From: a virus
Strand: one strand, 5' to 3'
Virus genome (UHGV): UHGV-0136548
DNA: 19,325 nt
Positions 9,023-10,864 of the stretch are shown in pieces. Positions within the stretch are counted from its first letter, which is position 1. Each line of letters begins with the position of its first letter. The position numbers were made by a program, and so were the translations under genes. Below the pieces are notes generated by a model. That model saw nothing but the letters and a program-made list of their open reading frames with translations. It had not been told where the DNA came from and ran no database searches.

Positions 9023-10285
9023 ATGAGCACTTCAGCACAAAACCAATCAATCGAAAATGTATGTATCCCTGATGTCCTGAATGCCGGTATCCCGGCCATT
9101 ATCCAGAACATCCGGGCCGCGCAACGCCGCGTTAGTTGTGATGACCTCACAGCACGTTTTTTTGATAATGCGGTTCAGTCAGCGGAGATGCTTCACGCAC
9201 AGCTTATTGATGTTTATAACGCAGAAGCTGATAGCCATAACTCCCTGGTAGATGCAGCTGAAAATATGCAGTTGGATCTCGGTCTGAAGGGTAAAGAAAT
9301 TGAAGAGCTTCAGCTGGAAATTGAACATTTGAAACGCCAGCAACAGGACGCGATCGACGATGCGACGCATGACGCCAACCAGCGTGCTGATAATGCCGAA
9401 CGTATAAGCATTGAGCTGGAAACAAAACTCAATGAAATGACCGCGATGGTTGAACTGCGGAACTCACAGATTTCAACGCTAAAATCTCAATATAAAGAGA
9501 TCATGAAACTTGATCCTTTTAACCTTGAGAAACGCTATAACAAAGCTAAAAGCGAGCGACAGGAACTGCGTAAGCAGGTCGCCGACCTTAACCAACAGCT
9601 CAAAAAAACTATTAAAGATGCAAGCGAGGCGCGCGTGGCATTTGCTAATAAAAAAGCAGAGGTTACCGCGCTGGTTAATGAGAATGCCAAATTTGCGACG
9701 CTCAAGAAGGAAATGTATGGCATTACTGAGCGCCGTTTCCCTGCAAGCAAACTTCATCCGACGTTAGGGCAAATCTCCTTCTTCCCGCGCCTCCTGGCTT
9801 ATGGGATCTCATCGCCTAAAGAGTTCAATAACGAGCGTCCTTATATCGTTTCTAAGCTGGACTTTGCTTATCAGTTCTGCTGCGACATGGGCTATGCCAT
9901 TGATATCCGAATCAACGAATGGTTGATGCCAAACTTCCAGCCGTTGGCAATTTTCCGCGAGTTCCAGCCGGAAGGTTGGGTAGAGTTCTTCCATGAATTG
10001 ATCTGTAAAGAGATGGAAAGCCGTCGCCCGGAATTGGTCCGTCGAGTTGAGTGGGCGCAAGAGGTTATGTTGGCAGATGCAGAGCTGCCGTTCGAACCGG
10101 AATTCATTGATGATCTGGCAACTAAAGGGCTGCATACCCTGTTTGATGTGGTTACCCGCCGTCATGAGCAGTTGGTTGTCGAATTGGGTTTAGAGGAAAC
10201 TGCGGCAAGAAGACTTCTCGATGTTTGCTATGCACGTAGCGATGCATGGGAAAAAGAGAACGGCGGCACTATTTACGTTCGCTGA
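9023..10285 (+). CDS. hypothetical protein with long central coiled-coil
   Basis: 420 aa. Residues ~80-220 show heptad-like E/K/Q/L-rich sequence (EIEELQLEIEHLKRQQQ...); C-terminal ~150 aa globular with no motif I recognise. Confidence 0.55.
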   Translation: MSTSAQNQSIENVCIPDVLNAGIPAIIQNIRAAQRRVSCDDLTARFFDNAVQSAEMLHAQLIDVYNAEADSHNSLVDAAENMQLDLGLKGKEIEELQLEIEHLKRQQQDAIDDATHDANQRADNAERISIELETKLNEMTAMVELRNSQISTLKSQYKEIMKLDPFNLEKRYNKAKSERQELRKQVADLNQQLKKTIKDASEARVAFANKKAEVTALVNENAKFATLKKEMYGITERRFPASKLHPTLGQISFFPRLLAYGISSPKEFNNERPYIVSKLDFAYQFCCDMGYAIDIRINEWLMPNFQPLAIFREFQPEGWVEFFHELICKEMESRRPELVRRVEWAQEVMLADAELPFEPEFIDDLATKGLHTLFDVVTRRHEQLVVELGLEETAARRLLDVCYARSDAWEKENGGTIYVR

Positions 10286-10357
10286 TAGTTACAGTGTCAC
10301 TTTTAATGCTGGTGGAGTGCTCCCACCAGCATTTTTTTCGTCCAATGAGGAGGGCAT

Positions 10358-10864
10358 TTGAGTATTTTCAATAAACACGCACACCAGGAACGTCCGTACA
10401 TCGTCATAGTAGATATTGATGGGACGATATCAGAGGCAACGGAAGACAGGCTGCATTTACTTCCACCACCTGGCAAAGGTGCATTAACAGAGCACTGGAA
10501 CGAGTTTAACCTTGCCTGTGACACTGATGCTCCCATCACTCCAGTTATTGATATGGTGCGCCAGTTGTCCGGCATTTACACCCTCTGGTTTGTAACCGGG
10601 CGCTGTGAGATAGCCAGGGATAAAACACGAGCCTGGTTGCGTAAGCACGTAACAAATGGGGCGGAGCCTTTGCTATCTATGCGTCCTGCCACCGATGACA
10701 GAAATGACGGTCCAGCAAAGATTGATCTCCTGAAGAAAATTGGTCTAAGTAAAATTGCGTTCGCGCTGGAAGATAAGATTGAAGTGGCGCGTGTTTTCAG
10801 GAGTCACGGCGTACTTACGTTAATGGTCAGGGAGTATGAAAACGCGCTTCTCCACCAACAATAA
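10358..10864 (+). CDS. HAD-superfamily phosphatase-like protein
   Basis: 168 aa. YIVIVDIDGTI matches HAD motif I (DxDGT); LWFVTGR resembles motif II; ATDDRNDG is a candidate motif IV. Confidence 0.55.
   Translation: MSIFNKHAHQERPYIVIVDIDGTISEATEDRLHLLPPPGKGALTEHWNEFNLACDTDAPITPVIDMVRQLSGIYTLWFVTGRCEIARDKTRAWLRKHVTNGAEPLLSMRPATDDRNDGPAKIDLLKKIGLSKIAFALEDKIEVARVFRSHGVLTLMVREYENALLHQQ

What the first reader, a model, noticed from the sequence alone, without database searches (positions are those of the whole stretch)
9023..10864. Coiled-coil protein and HAD-like phosphatase pair bounded by operator-like sites
A 420-aa protein with a long central coiled-coil and an unassigned C-terminal domain is followed by a 168-aa protein with a HAD motif I (DIDGT). 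The pair sits between the operator-like sites at 8723-8788 and 10864. Phage HAD phosphatases include polynucleotide 3'-phosphatases and nucleotidases, so this could be a nucleic-acid end-processing or nucleotide-pool function.
Basis: partly seen in the sequence, partly recalled or inferred. Interest (0 to 1): 0.5.

Follow-up and report, generated by a model that had tools for sequence, protein, structure and literature searches.

The report
Phage P1 pmgS and pap genes
This stretch is the already-annotated pmgR-pmgS-pap block of a P1-type phage-plasmid, bounded by known C1 repressor operators: pap is a stand-alone T4-Pnkp-type 3'-phosphatase domain, pmgS is a conserved coiled-coil protein with a DNA-binding-type tail, and the two are neighbours rather than a conserved pair.

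Summary
ORFs 9023-10285 (420 aa) and 10358-10864 (168 aa, TTG start, DIDGT) exist, and three perfect ATTGCTCTAATAA sites flank them.

The window is a P1-like phage-plasmid, 98-99% identical to P1. Its PmgS is 100% identical to that of phage JL22. The genes are P1 pmgS and pap. The sites are the annotated C1 operators Op86a/b and Op88.

Pap passes the Pfam HAD_PNKP cut-off, keeps all four HAD motifs, and best matches the T4 Pnkp 3'-phosphatase fold. It has no kinase domain.

PmgS is predicted as a long coiled-coil hairpin, then a domain with no Pfam match, then a RAD51-N-terminal-like (HhH)2 domain.

The "pair" reading is not supported:
- A terminator-like hairpin separates the genes.
- pap diverges about eight times more than pmgS from P1.
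- Pap relatives occur in 1164 phage records, PmgS relatives in about 29.
- Only 1 of 31 diverged PmgS loci also carries pap.
- The conserved, translationally coupled partner of pmgS is pmgR.

Published deletions of pmgS and pap show no plaque or antirestriction defect. Distant PmgS homologs lie among integrase, recombination and methyltransferase genes, so the "head morphogenesis" label is doubtful.

Verdict: already known, low interest.

The parts
8723..8739 (+). C1 repressor operator Op86a (OpmgRa), overlapping the -35 hexamer of the predicted sigma-70 promoter PpmgR
   Evidence: Perfect 13-nt operator core. It aligns with the protein_bind feature at 82152-82168 of AF234172.
8748..8775 (+). 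Hairpin followed by a T-run, lying between the two Op86 operators. It looks like a terminator for the upstream pmgQ operon.
   Evidence: Predicted fold of -13.4 kcal/mol, z -5.7, with 0 of 200 shuffles folding as well.
8772..8788 (-). C1 operator Op86b (OpmgRb), inverted relative to Op86a
8803..9021 (+). pmgR (72 aa). Its stop codon lies 1 nt before the pmgS ATG. It is the conserved upstream partner of pmgS in P1-like elements.
   Evidence: Matches phrog_3177 at 4e-47. Homologs sit directly upstream of pmgS homologs in L002 (36% identity) and L003 (52%), and the phage D6 record annotates a pmgR-like gene there. [quoted passage not shown]
9023..10285 (+). pmgS (420 aa). Predicted layout: N-terminal helix; coiled-coil hairpin (aa 41-232, nt 9143-9718) with an invariant L163-D164-P165 apex (nt 9509-9517); a beta/alpha domain with no Pfam match (aa 233-352, nt 9719-10078); and a C-terminal (HhH)2 domain (aa 359-413, nt 10097-10261).
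10305..10338 (+). Intrinsic-terminator-like hairpin (11 bp stem, 7 nt loop) with a T7 run, between the pmgS stop codon and the pap start codon
   Evidence: Found by the terminator scan. Predicted fold of -18.1 kcal/mol, z -3.5. Conserved in P1 and in P1-like loci apart from one loop base.
10347..10354 (+). Shine-Dalgarno sequence GAGGAGGG for pap
   Evidence: Read directly from the sequence.
10358..10864 (+). pap (168 aa, TTG start), a stand-alone HAD phosphatase of the Pnkp type. Motif I is D19-I-D21-G-T23 (nt 10412-10426), motif II is T80-G-R82, motif III is K121, and motif IV is E138-D139.
   Evidence: Pfam PF25109 at 3e-11, above the curated cut-off. Matches phrog_415. The motif residues are invariant in alignment A3. 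Profile hits to PDB sequences and Foldseek hits to PDB structures point to the same enzymes.
10864..10880 (+). C1 operator Op88 (OpmgT). Its first base is the last base of the pap stop codon. It overlaps the promoters of the next operon (pmgT).

Best explanation
The region is the pmgR-pmgS-pap segment of a P1-type (Punavirus) phage-plasmid.

Regulation. In the prophage, C1 repressor bound at Op86a/b shuts off the sigma-70 promoter PpmgR. On derepression pmgR and pmgS are transcribed and translated as a coupled pair. Most transcripts probably stop at the hairpin at 10305-10338. pap is probably expressed from the transcripts that read through it (inferred). Op88 starts the next operon.

Pap. Pap is a stand-alone member of the T4 Pnkp-type HAD phosphatase family. 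By homology it would use D19 as the nucleophile, forming an aspartyl-phosphate intermediate, with D21 as general acid/base and Mg2+ held by E138/D139. It would remove a phosphomonoester, most likely a 3'-phosphate on DNA or RNA ends or on 3'-nucleotides. It has no 5'-kinase module, and no ligase or kinase partner was found in the window. It is therefore an accessory end-healing or nucleotide-salvage enzyme, not a complete repair system.

PmgS. PmgS is a non-virion, non-essential but strongly conserved protein. It is predicted as a long antiparallel coiled-coil hairpin whose head combines a domain without Pfam match and a RAD51-N-terminal-like (HhH)2 domain. It most likely binds DNA, or a DNA-bound partner, during early lytic development. 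A role in virion assembly is less likely.

The two genes are adjacent modules that share regulation. They are not an obligate functional pair.

Shown here or in the cited literature: gene identity, operators, HAD motifs and fold, domain layout, lack of co-conservation, and dispensability. Inferred: terminator read-through, the Pap substrate, and DNA binding by PmgS.
For: Identity:
- The region is 98.4-98.9% identical to P1 over 8500-11200. The P1 record annotates pmgR, pmgS, pap, Op86a/b and Op88 at the aligned positions.
- PmgS is 100% identical to that of phage JL22.

Pap:
- HAD_PNKP at 44.1 bits against a cut-off of 27.6.
- Motif residues D19, D21, T23, T80, R82, K121, E138 and D139 are invariant across 11 homologs down to 58% identity.
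- A family profile hits Pnkp1 (4xrp, 2.8e-6) and T4 Pnkp (5uj0 5e-6, 1ltq 3.9e-5).
- The top 20 Foldseek hits are all T4 Pnkp or Pnkp1.

PmgS:
- 99 clusters (representatives at 50% identity) carry the C-terminal domain, nearly always at the C-terminus of 350-470-aa proteins.
- All 34 sampled members hit phrog_1660, and 14 of them hit HhH-type Pfam families.

Early rather than late regulation:
- Operators overlap sigma-70 promoters.
- No Lpa late-promoter box lies nearby.

Not a pair:
- A terminator-like hairpin separates the genes.
- Against P1 there are 28 differences in pap but 14 across pmgR plus pmgS.
- One P1-like element has pap interrupted soon after its start, and two have pap truncated.
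- A relative with 53% PmgS identity has a 101-aa gene inserted between the two.
- The 27% relative and phage D6 have pmgR-pmgS but no pap.
- Pap relatives occur in 1164 phage records and PmgS relatives in 26-29.
- The Pap HMM hits 1 of 31 diverged PmgS loci.

Dispensability and conservation:
- In-frame deletions of pmgS and pap were constructed, and neither is among the five knockouts reported as essential. The other 24 of 29 showed no plaquing defect and no change in antirestriction activity (PMC9024508).
- PmgS is not mentioned anywhere in that paper's main text, which includes the virion proteome table.
- CRISPRi knockdown gave plating efficiencies of 1.2 for pmgS and 0.77 for pap (PMC10695390).
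- pmgR and pmgS are among 21 extremely conserved genes in 77 P1-like phage-plasmids; pap is not on that list (PMC9603915).
Against: - No enzymatic or binding data exist for either protein.
- The Pap model is only moderately confident (pLDDT 61.6), and the cap-like segment at residues 22-59 is below 50.
- P1 PmgS itself does not reach significance for any HhH Pfam family. Its hairpin motifs are degenerate (KGLHT and ELGLEE rather than GIG), so DNA binding may be weakened or lost.
- The antiparallel hairpin comes from a monomer prediction built on a 12-sequence alignment.
- pmgR, which is co-translated with pmgS, is reported as essential for head-tail joining. That leaves room for a subtle morphogenetic role of PmgS.
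- In the Delta-hfq transcriptome preprint pmgS and pap change together. This fits co-transcription, so the terminator may be leaky.
Confidence: 0.8

Rival explanations
1. One reading: PmgS and Pap act together as a two-component nucleic-acid end-processing unit. PmgS would target or scaffold the phosphatase on DNA or RNA.
For: - The genes are adjacent, on the same strand, and lie between the same operators.
- The spacing is a fixed 75-77 nt in 76 of 80 P1-like loci.
- PmgS has a nucleic-acid-binding-type (HhH)2 domain.
- The two genes respond alike in a Delta-hfq transcriptome.
Against: - A terminator-like hairpin lies between them.
- Pap-family genes occur in more than 1100 phage records that lack PmgS.
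- 30 of 31 diverged PmgS loci lack Pap.
- pap is interrupted or truncated in otherwise intact P1-like elements.
- The divergence patterns differ.
- pmgS is on the published list of extremely conserved genes and pap is not.
Confidence: 0.07
2. Historical annotation: PmgS is a morphogenetic protein. It is called ShtB 'sheath contraction' in P7, 'prohead scaffolding protein' in D6, and 'PmgS-like head morphogenesis' in PHROGs.
For: - Annotation notes in the P7 and D6 records and the PHROG label.
- The protein is long and helical, as scaffolding proteins are.
- It is translationally coupled to pmgR, whose deletion gives unjoined heads and tails.
Against: - pmgS is not among the five knockouts reported as defective; the others showed no plaquing defect.
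- It is non-essential by CRISPRi.
- It is not mentioned in the main text of the virion proteome paper.
- It is under a C1-controlled sigma-70 promoter with no late-promoter box.
- The P1 capsid protein is processed at E120/S121; by HK97 analogy, from my own knowledge, the removed N-terminal part could itself serve as scaffold.
- Distant homologs lie among integrase, repressor, RecT/exonuclease, DnaC-like and DNA methyltransferase genes in Vibrio, Aeromonas and uncultured temperate phages, not in structural modules.
Confidence: 0.1
3. Pap works on small molecules rather than polynucleotide ends. It could be a nucleotidase ('acid phosphatase') that feeds the nucleotide pool, or it could destroy a phosphorylated host signalling nucleotide.
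For: - The original P1 name is 'acid phosphatase'.
- There are weak similarities to class B acid phosphatase AphA (Pfam E 0.09; Foldseek E 5e-3 to 2e-2).
- T4 Pnkp itself also dephosphorylates 3'-dNMPs (established knowledge, recalled from memory).
- No kinase or ligase partner lies nearby, so complete end repair is not encoded.
Against: The best sequence and fold matches are all polynucleotide 3'-phosphatase domains. The AphA family threshold is not met (12.7 bits against 27).
Confidence: 0.3

Closest known systems
Bacteriophage P1 genes pmgS and pap, with C1 operators Op86a/b and Op88 (GenBank AF234172 / NC_005856; P7 shtB and pap)
   Same: The DNA is 98.4-98.9% identical, with the same gene order, lengths, start codons and operator positions.
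   Different: This copy carries a pap allele with about 8% nucleotide divergence from P1 in 10492-10855. Downstream, it leaves the P1 backbone within the 3' end of pmgT.
3'-phosphatase domain of T4 polynucleotide kinase/phosphatase (Pnkp/PseT; PDB 1LTQ, 2IA5, 5UJ0)
   Same: Both have the HAD fold and motifs DxDGT, (S/T)GR, K and (D/E)D. This is the top structural and profile match. The aspartyl-phosphate mechanism is implied by homology.
   Different: Identity is only 20-24%. Pap has no N-terminal 5'-kinase domain and no P-loop in its sequence. The first residue of motif IV is Glu rather than Asp. No RNA ligase partner was found in the window.
Pnkp1 of the bacterial Pnkp1-Rnl-Hen1 RNA repair system (PDB 4XRP/4XRU)
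   Same: It is the best sequence-profile hit (2.8e-6), to the phosphatase domain at residues 208-300.
   Different: Pnkp1 is a 312-aa kinase-phosphatase that works in a complex with a ligase and a methyltransferase. Pap is the phosphatase module alone.
Stand-alone 'polynucleotide kinase/phosphatase' genes of T1-like (Drexlerviridae), Webervirus and KP34/SP6-like phages (phrog_415)
   Same: They have the same size class (about 140-170 aa), 35-41% identity and full-length alignment.
   Different: They sit in virulent phages with entirely different neighbours and never next to a PmgS homolog. As far as I found, they are also uncharacterised.
RAD51/RAD51C/RadA N-terminal (HhH)2 domain, NusA acidic repeat and RNA polymerase alpha C-terminal domain
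   Different: In PmgS the domain is attached to a coiled-coil hairpin and a domain without Pfam match. There is no recombinase or polymerase core. The P1 copy has degenerate hairpin glycines.
SMC/Rad50/MukB-type coiled-coil arms
   Same: PmgS is predicted to have a long antiparallel coiled coil that brings the N- and C-terminal parts together, with a strictly conserved apex.
   Different: There are no ATPase head motifs. The hits cover only coiled-coil segments, at 16-18 bits against cut-offs of 567-1000. The PADLOC hits to LmuB and JetC are of the same kind.

Membership tests
HAD superfamily, Pnkp-type phosphatase (Pfam PF25109 HAD_PNKP) | Score above the curated family threshold | tested here: met
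   44.1 bits against a cut-off of 27.6, E 3e-11, covering residues 53-158.
HAD superfamily, Pnkp-type phosphatase (Pfam PF25109 HAD_PNKP) | Motif I DxDx(T/V), holding the nucleophile Asp and the Asp+2 general acid | tested here: met
   D19-I-D21-G-T23 is invariant in 11 homologs. It aligns to the VDGT segment of T4 Pnkp.
HAD superfamily, Pnkp-type phosphatase (Pfam PF25109 HAD_PNKP) | Motif II (S/T, here (S/T)GR), motif III Lys, and motif IV acidic pair | tested here: met
   T80-G81-R82, K121 and E138-D139 are invariant. They align with SGR, K and DD of T4 Pnkp and Pnkp1. Glu replaces the first Asp of motif IV.
HAD superfamily, Pnkp-type phosphatase (Pfam PF25109 HAD_PNKP) | Rossmann-like HAD fold superposable on a solved member | tested here: met
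   Foldseek to 5uj0 gives E 2.3e-6, probability 1.0 and target TM-score 0.64-0.67. The model pLDDT is only 61.6 and the cap region is unreliable.
HAD superfamily, Pnkp-type phosphatase (Pfam PF25109 HAD_PNKP) | Mg2+-dependent 3'-phosphatase activity | not testable with these tools
   This needs a biochemical assay.
Bifunctional polynucleotide 5'-kinase/3'-phosphatase (the common database label '3'-phosphatase, 5'-polynucleotide kinase') | P-loop kinase domain | tested here: not met
   The protein is 168 aa, all of it accounted for by the phosphatase domain. The sequence has no GxxxxGK(S/T) motif. PHROG and PDB alignments cover only the phosphatase halves of bifunctional enzymes.
Class B bacterial acid phosphatase (AphA; Pfam PF03767), the origin of the name 'Pap' | Score above the family threshold | tested here: not met
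   12.7 bits against a cut-off of 27, E 0.09. Only distant fold similarity, E 5e-3 or weaker.
PHROG 1660 ('PmgS-like head morphogenesis') | Full-length match to the family profile | tested here: met
   E 2e-195, aligning residues 1-420 to profile positions 1-403 of 405. All 34 distant relatives also match.
Virion structural or morphogenetic protein (the functional claim carried by the PmgS, ShtB and scaffolding labels) | Required for infectious particle formation, or present in virions | tested here: not met
   From the literature rather than my own experiment. pmgS is not among the five knockouts reported as defective; the other 24 of 29 showed no plaquing defect, and a pmgS deletion was among those built (PMC9024508). 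PmgS is not mentioned in that paper's main text, which includes the virion proteome table. CRISPRi plating efficiency was 1.2.
Virion structural or morphogenetic protein (the functional claim carried by the PmgS, ShtB and scaffolding labels) | Late (Lpa-dependent) promoter and/or location in a structural gene module | tested here: not met
   The promoter is C1-operated and sigma-70 type. The only AAGTTACTT box in the window is at 17829. Distant homologs lie in early, recombination or methyltransferase regions.
(HhH)2 DNA-binding domain (Pfam HHH_5 / RNA_pol_A_CTD; RAD51 N-terminal-domain-like) | Two helix-hairpin-helix motifs forming a five-helix domain | tested here: met
(HhH)2 DNA-binding domain (Pfam HHH_5 / RNA_pol_A_CTD; RAD51 N-terminal-domain-like) | Significant sequence match and a G-h-G hairpin | tested here: inconclusive
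   P1-type PmgS has no significant Pfam HhH hit and has degenerate hairpins. By contrast, 9 of 34 relatives hit HHH_5 and 5 of 34 hit RNA_pol_A_CTD, and these carry a canonical KGIGxxxAxxI.
SMC/Rad50-type ATPase | Walker A/B and signature motifs in head domains | tested here: not met
   Only coiled-coil segments align, at 16-18 bits against cut-offs of 567-1000. The sequence has no P-loop.
P1 C1 repressor operator | Asymmetric 17-bp site with the core ATTGCTCTAATAA, at a position homologous to a mapped operator | tested here: met
   Three perfect cores, with 0 of 200 shuffles reaching the observed count. They coincide with Op86a, Op86b and Op88 of AF234172. C1 binding itself was not tested.

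The most novel reading that the evidence does not exclude
PmgS-like proteins (phrog_1660; about 100 clusters at 50% identity, in temperate phages and phage-plasmids of Enterobacteriaceae, Vibrio, Aeromonas and Pseudomonas) may not be head-morphogenesis proteins at all. They could be an uncharacterised class of early-expressed DNA-binding proteins. The predicted build is an SMC-arm-like coiled-coil hairpin without an ATPase, a domain with no Pfam match, and a RAD51-N-terminal-like (HhH)2 domain. They would act on phage or host DNA, for example in counter-defence, or together with the orphan DNA methyltransferases and recombination genes they often abut. That would explain why pmgS is among the most conserved P1 genes yet dispensable on laboratory hosts.
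Probability: 0.35. Interest if true: 0.5.

Novelty: already known. Interest (0 to 1): 0.22.

Why it matters
As a feature it adds little. The genes and operators have been in the P1 genome annotation for two decades, and both genes are known to be dispensable in the laboratory.

Three practical points come out of the check:
- The widespread label "3'-phosphatase, 5'-polynucleotide kinase" over-states what these roughly 165-aa proteins can do, because they have no kinase domain.
- The label "PmgS-like head morphogenesis", and the related "sheath contraction" and "prohead scaffolding" labels, rest on no direct evidence. They conflict with published knockouts, with the paper reporting the virion proteome, with promoter type and with gene neighbourhoods.
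- pmgS is highly conserved but has no laboratory phenotype. That makes it, and the stand-alone Pnkp-type phosphatases found in more than 1000 phage genomes, reasonable candidates to test against host defence systems.

Tried and rejected
- Pfam, NCBIfam and PADLOC scans of PmgS gave only sub-threshold coiled-coil noise: TPR, SMC, Rad50, LmuB, JetC. I rejected these as composition or heptad artefacts.
- A PDB sequence search with PmgS found nothing.
- A Foldseek search of BFVD with the PmgS model gave no hit at E <= 1e-3. The afdb50 library was unavailable.
- The middle domain (aa 232-352) from ten family members gave no Pfam hit even at E <= 10. I considered a PD-(D/E)xK nuclease reading because of the alpha-beta-beta-beta-alpha order, but dropped it. 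No (D/E)xK motif is conserved, and the candidate acidic positions vary across the family.
- The 34-sequence family alignment was too divergent for the search for related loci. A sub-alignment worked on viral contigs but found only one genome locus.
- The search of viral contigs with the P1-like alignment returned only copies at least 98.5% identical. They were useful for adjacency counts but not for diversity.
- Literature: the bare term 'PmgS' is swamped by unrelated acronyms. 'PmgS-like' gave one irrelevant paper. A search for Pnkp-type phosphatases in defence contexts found nothing relevant. The 2004 P1 genome paper is not held.
- Rfam and tRNA scans of the window found nothing.
- A search for an Lpa late-promoter box near the genes found none.
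Full report
**What is there**

The window carries, on the + strand, ORFs at 8020-8721 (233 aa), 8803-9021 (72 aa), 9023-10285 (420 aa), 10358-10864 (168 aa, TTG start) and 11059-11787 (242 aa). Megablast of 8500-11200 against phage genomes gives 19 records covering at least 80% of the query, all P1-like. Identity to phage P1 is 98.4-98.9%.

In the P1 record AF234172 the aligned features are pmgQ, the C1 operator OpmgRa (former Op86a) overlapping promoter PpmgR, operator OpmgRb (Op86b), pmgR, pmgS, pap, and operator OpmgT (Op88) overlapping the pmgT promoters. The PmgS protein is 100% identical to that of the P1-like phage-plasmid JL22.

The finding is therefore the pmgS-pap part of a known P1 gene block, and the "operator-like sites" are the known C1 operators. 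The core ATTGCTCTAATAA occurs perfectly at 8723 (+), 8776 (-) and 10864 (+), and with one mismatch at 5103 (-), which corresponds to Op83. None of 200 shuffles reached four matches.

**Pap**

Family and profile evidence:
- The 168-aa protein passes the Pfam gathering threshold for HAD_PNKP, the phosphatase domain of polynucleotide kinase/phosphatase (44.1 bits against 27.6).
- It matches phrog_415 over its full length.
- In an alignment of 11 homologs down to 58% identity, the residues expected for a HAD phosphatase are invariant: D19-I-D21-G-T23, T80-G-R82, K121 and E138-D139. So are R31, D113, R115 and D117.
- A profile of this alignment finds Pnkp1 of the Pnkp1-Rnl-Hen1 RNA repair complex (4xrp, 2.8e-6), the isolated T4 Pnkp phosphatase domain (5uj0, 5e-6) and full T4 Pnkp (1ltq, 3.9e-5). 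The motifs are in register.

Structural evidence:
- The AlphaFold model is only moderately confident (pLDDT 61.6). The segment at residues 22-59, where HAD caps sit, is unreliable.
- The Rossmann-like core still retrieves T4 Pnkp and Pnkp1 as its top 20 Foldseek hits (E down to 2.3e-6). More distant HAD enzymes such as AphA follow.

What Pap lacks:
- There is no P-loop and no room for a kinase domain. The common label "3'-phosphatase, 5'-polynucleotide kinase" is wrong in its second half.
- The original name "acid phosphatase" is not supported as class B family membership (12.7 bits against 27).
- By homology the mechanism is aspartyl-phosphate catalysis by D19 and D21 with Mg2+. The substrate is not known.
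- No kinase or ligase gene was found among the window's other ORFs that I scanned. A T4-style complete RNA repair pathway is not encoded here.

**PmgS**

Sequence libraries give only phrog_1660 ("PmgS-like head morphogenesis", E 2e-195) and sub-threshold coiled-coil noise.

The word-indexed search found just 29 clusters. All are P1-like apart from one 27%-identical protein with a weak HHH_5 hit. Several short clusters are frameshifted copies.

An AlphaFold model built on 12 full-length homologs (pLDDT 77.6) predicts these elements:
- a helix at 15-34;
- two very long helices, 41-160 and 166-232, joined at a short break;
- a small three-stranded sheet with helices (about 250-350);
- a compact helical domain at 359-413 with pLDDT 88-91.

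The break coincides with L163-D164-P165, which is invariant among the P1-like sequences. P165 is kept in at least 90% of 34 very diverse relatives.

An exhaustive profile search with the C-terminal half (residues 228-420) found 99 clusters. Nearly all are 350-470-aa proteins with the domain at the C-terminus. All 34 sampled members hit phrog_1660. Nine hit Pfam HHH_5 and five hit RNA_pol_A_CTD. Their alignment shows a canonical KGIGxxxAxxI where P1 has the degenerate ELGLEETAARRLL.

The middle domain has no Pfam match even at E <= 10 and no significant BFVD match.

**Is it a pair?**

Within close P1-like elements the adjacency is stable. In 80 IMG/VR loci with at least 98.5% PmgS identity, pap follows at 75-77 nt in 76. 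One locus ends at the contig edge, one has pap interrupted about 45 nt after its start by what looks like an IS3-family insertion, and two have truncated pap.

Several lines then separate the two genes:
1. A hairpin of 11 bp followed by seven T residues lies between the pmgS stop and the pap start (10305-10338; -18.1 kcal/mol, z -3.5). It is conserved in P1. The P1 and P7 annotators also assign Op86 control to pmgR and pmgS (the "sht operon") only.
2. Against P1, pmgR plus pmgS carry 14 differences in about 1480 nt. pap carries 28 in about 360 nt. pap falls into roughly 99% and 93% allele classes while PmgR stays at 100%. pap is therefore a separately exchanging patch.
3. In a 53%-identical relative, a 101-aa gene lies between pmgS and the HAD gene. 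In a 27%-identical relative and in phage D6, pmgR-pmgS is kept but there is no HAD gene.
4. Pap-family genes occur in 1164 phage records, mostly virulent T1-like, Webervirus and KP34/SP6-like phages. PmgS-family genes occur in 26-29 records.
5. A Pap-family HMM finds a hit in only 1 of 31 loci with diverged PmgS homologs.
6. A published survey of 77 P1-like phage-plasmids lists pmgR and pmgS, but not pap, among 21 extremely conserved genes (PMC9603915).

The conserved partner of pmgS is pmgR. Its stop codon is 1 nt from the pmgS start codon.

**What do they do?**

Published work shows the following:
- Of 29 single-gene knockouts, 24 showed no plaquing defect and no change in antirestriction activity. 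In-frame deletions of pmgS and pap were among those constructed, and neither is one of the five reported as essential. Delta-pmgR gives unjoined heads and tails (PMC9024508).
- PmgS is not mentioned anywhere in that paper's main text, which includes the virion proteome table.
- CRISPRi knockdown agrees, with plating efficiencies of 1.2 and 0.77 (PMC10695390).

The genes sit behind a C1-operated sigma-70 promoter. The only Lpa late-promoter -22 box in the window is at 17829, in front of hot.

Distant PmgS homologs lie in early or accessory regions:
- In Aeromonas phage phiARM81mr the gene lies between RecE/RecT/integrase and a Dam methyltransferase and an exonuclease.
- In Vibrio phage 1F273_PE002 it follows YfdP/YfdQ and abuts a type II methyltransferase.
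- In Vibrio phage douglas 12A4 it abuts a DNA methyltransferase.
- In Aeromonas phage ST4 it follows a restriction-endonuclease-like gene.
- Across eight uncultured viral loci I scanned 80 neighbouring proteins. The recurrent families are integrase (5), CI-type repressor (5), exonuclease (3), MT-A70 or Dam methyltransferase (3), DUF2303 (2) and DnaC-like loader (2). RecT appears once. Structural genes are rare.

Taken together, the morphogenetic labels (P7 "sheath contraction", D6 "prohead scaffolding", PHROG "head morphogenesis") are not supported. A DNA-directed early function is the more likely reading, but it remains an inference.

**Verdict**

However, the feature is already annotated, the "pair" is an adjacency confined to one lineage, and both genes are known to be dispensable.

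The residual interest lies in the uncharacterised PmgS family and in the very common stand-alone Pnkp-type phosphatases of phages.

Noticed in passing
window 8748-8775: A stable hairpin (-13.4 kcal/mol, z -5.7) followed by a T-run sits exactly between the two inverted C1 operators Op86a and Op86b. The terminator of the upstream pmgQ operon, the operators and the promoter of the next operon are therefore interleaved within 66 nt.
   Followed up: partly
window 10913-10935 and 10915-11049: A strong GC-rich hairpin has its T-run on the minus strand only, although no minus-strand gene ends there. It overlaps the start of a 44-aa ORF. An internal Met at 10964, preceded by AGGAG, would give a 28-aa hydrophobic peptide. 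The region is annotated 'membrane protein' in phage SJ46 but is unannotated in P1.
   Followed up: no
window about 11755 onward (pmgT 3' end to 19325): PmgT is 98% identical to P1 PmgT for aa 1-232 and then diverges (242 aa here, 309 aa in P1). From there the window is mosaic. No phage record covers more than 77% of 10860-19325, and parts match lambdoid and Stx phages, for example the Ead/Ea22-like protein at 12267-12851. This corresponds to the published 'variable region H' of P1-like phage-plasmids.
   Followed up: partly
window 10492-10855 (inside pap): This is a divergent patch relative to P1, with 28 differences in about 360 nt against about 1% in pmgR and pmgS. Across IMG/VR copies pap falls into two allele classes (about 99% and about 93% protein identity).
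   Followed up: yes
L012 6380-7640 (IMGVR_UViG_651053023_000001, 103 kb): pap is interrupted about 45 nt after its start codon by what looks like an IS3-family insertion (ORFs of 136 and 296 aa; the family assignment is from my reading of the junction sequence, not a database match). The P1-like element is otherwise intact, with 100% identical PmgR and PmgS.
   Followed up: partly
protein P0134 (472 aa, metagenome): The N-terminal two thirds look to me like the adenylation domain of NAD-dependent DNA ligase LigA (recognised by eye, not tested with a tool). It is joined in frame to the C-terminal half of a PmgS-like protein, from the second beta strand to the (HhH)2 domain. This could be a real domain fusion or an assembly chimera. 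Only a single instance was seen.
   Followed up: no
window 5421-8721: The upstream 'putative morphogenetic' genes look enzymatic rather than structural. PmgM has a VRR-NUC nuclease domain. PmgO and PmgP match MptE-like / alpha-2,3-sialyltransferase-like families. PmgQ matches a glycosyltransferase PHROG. Ppp is a lambda-type Ser/Thr phosphatase.
   Followed up: no
L089 8107-8742, L008 7912-8576, L091 7113-7727, L007 8297-8875: In several Vibrio and Aeromonas phages and in one uncultured viral contig, the PmgS-like gene is followed by an orphan DNA methyltransferase (MT-A70, Dam or type II). The methyltransferase follows either immediately, with overlapping or adjacent stop and start codons, or after one small gene.
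   Followed up: partly
window 17866-18651: hot (17866-18138) is followed after only 124 nt by humD (18262-18651). In P1 the minus-strand gene lxr (573 nt) lies between them, so lxr appears to be absent from this element.
   Followed up: no
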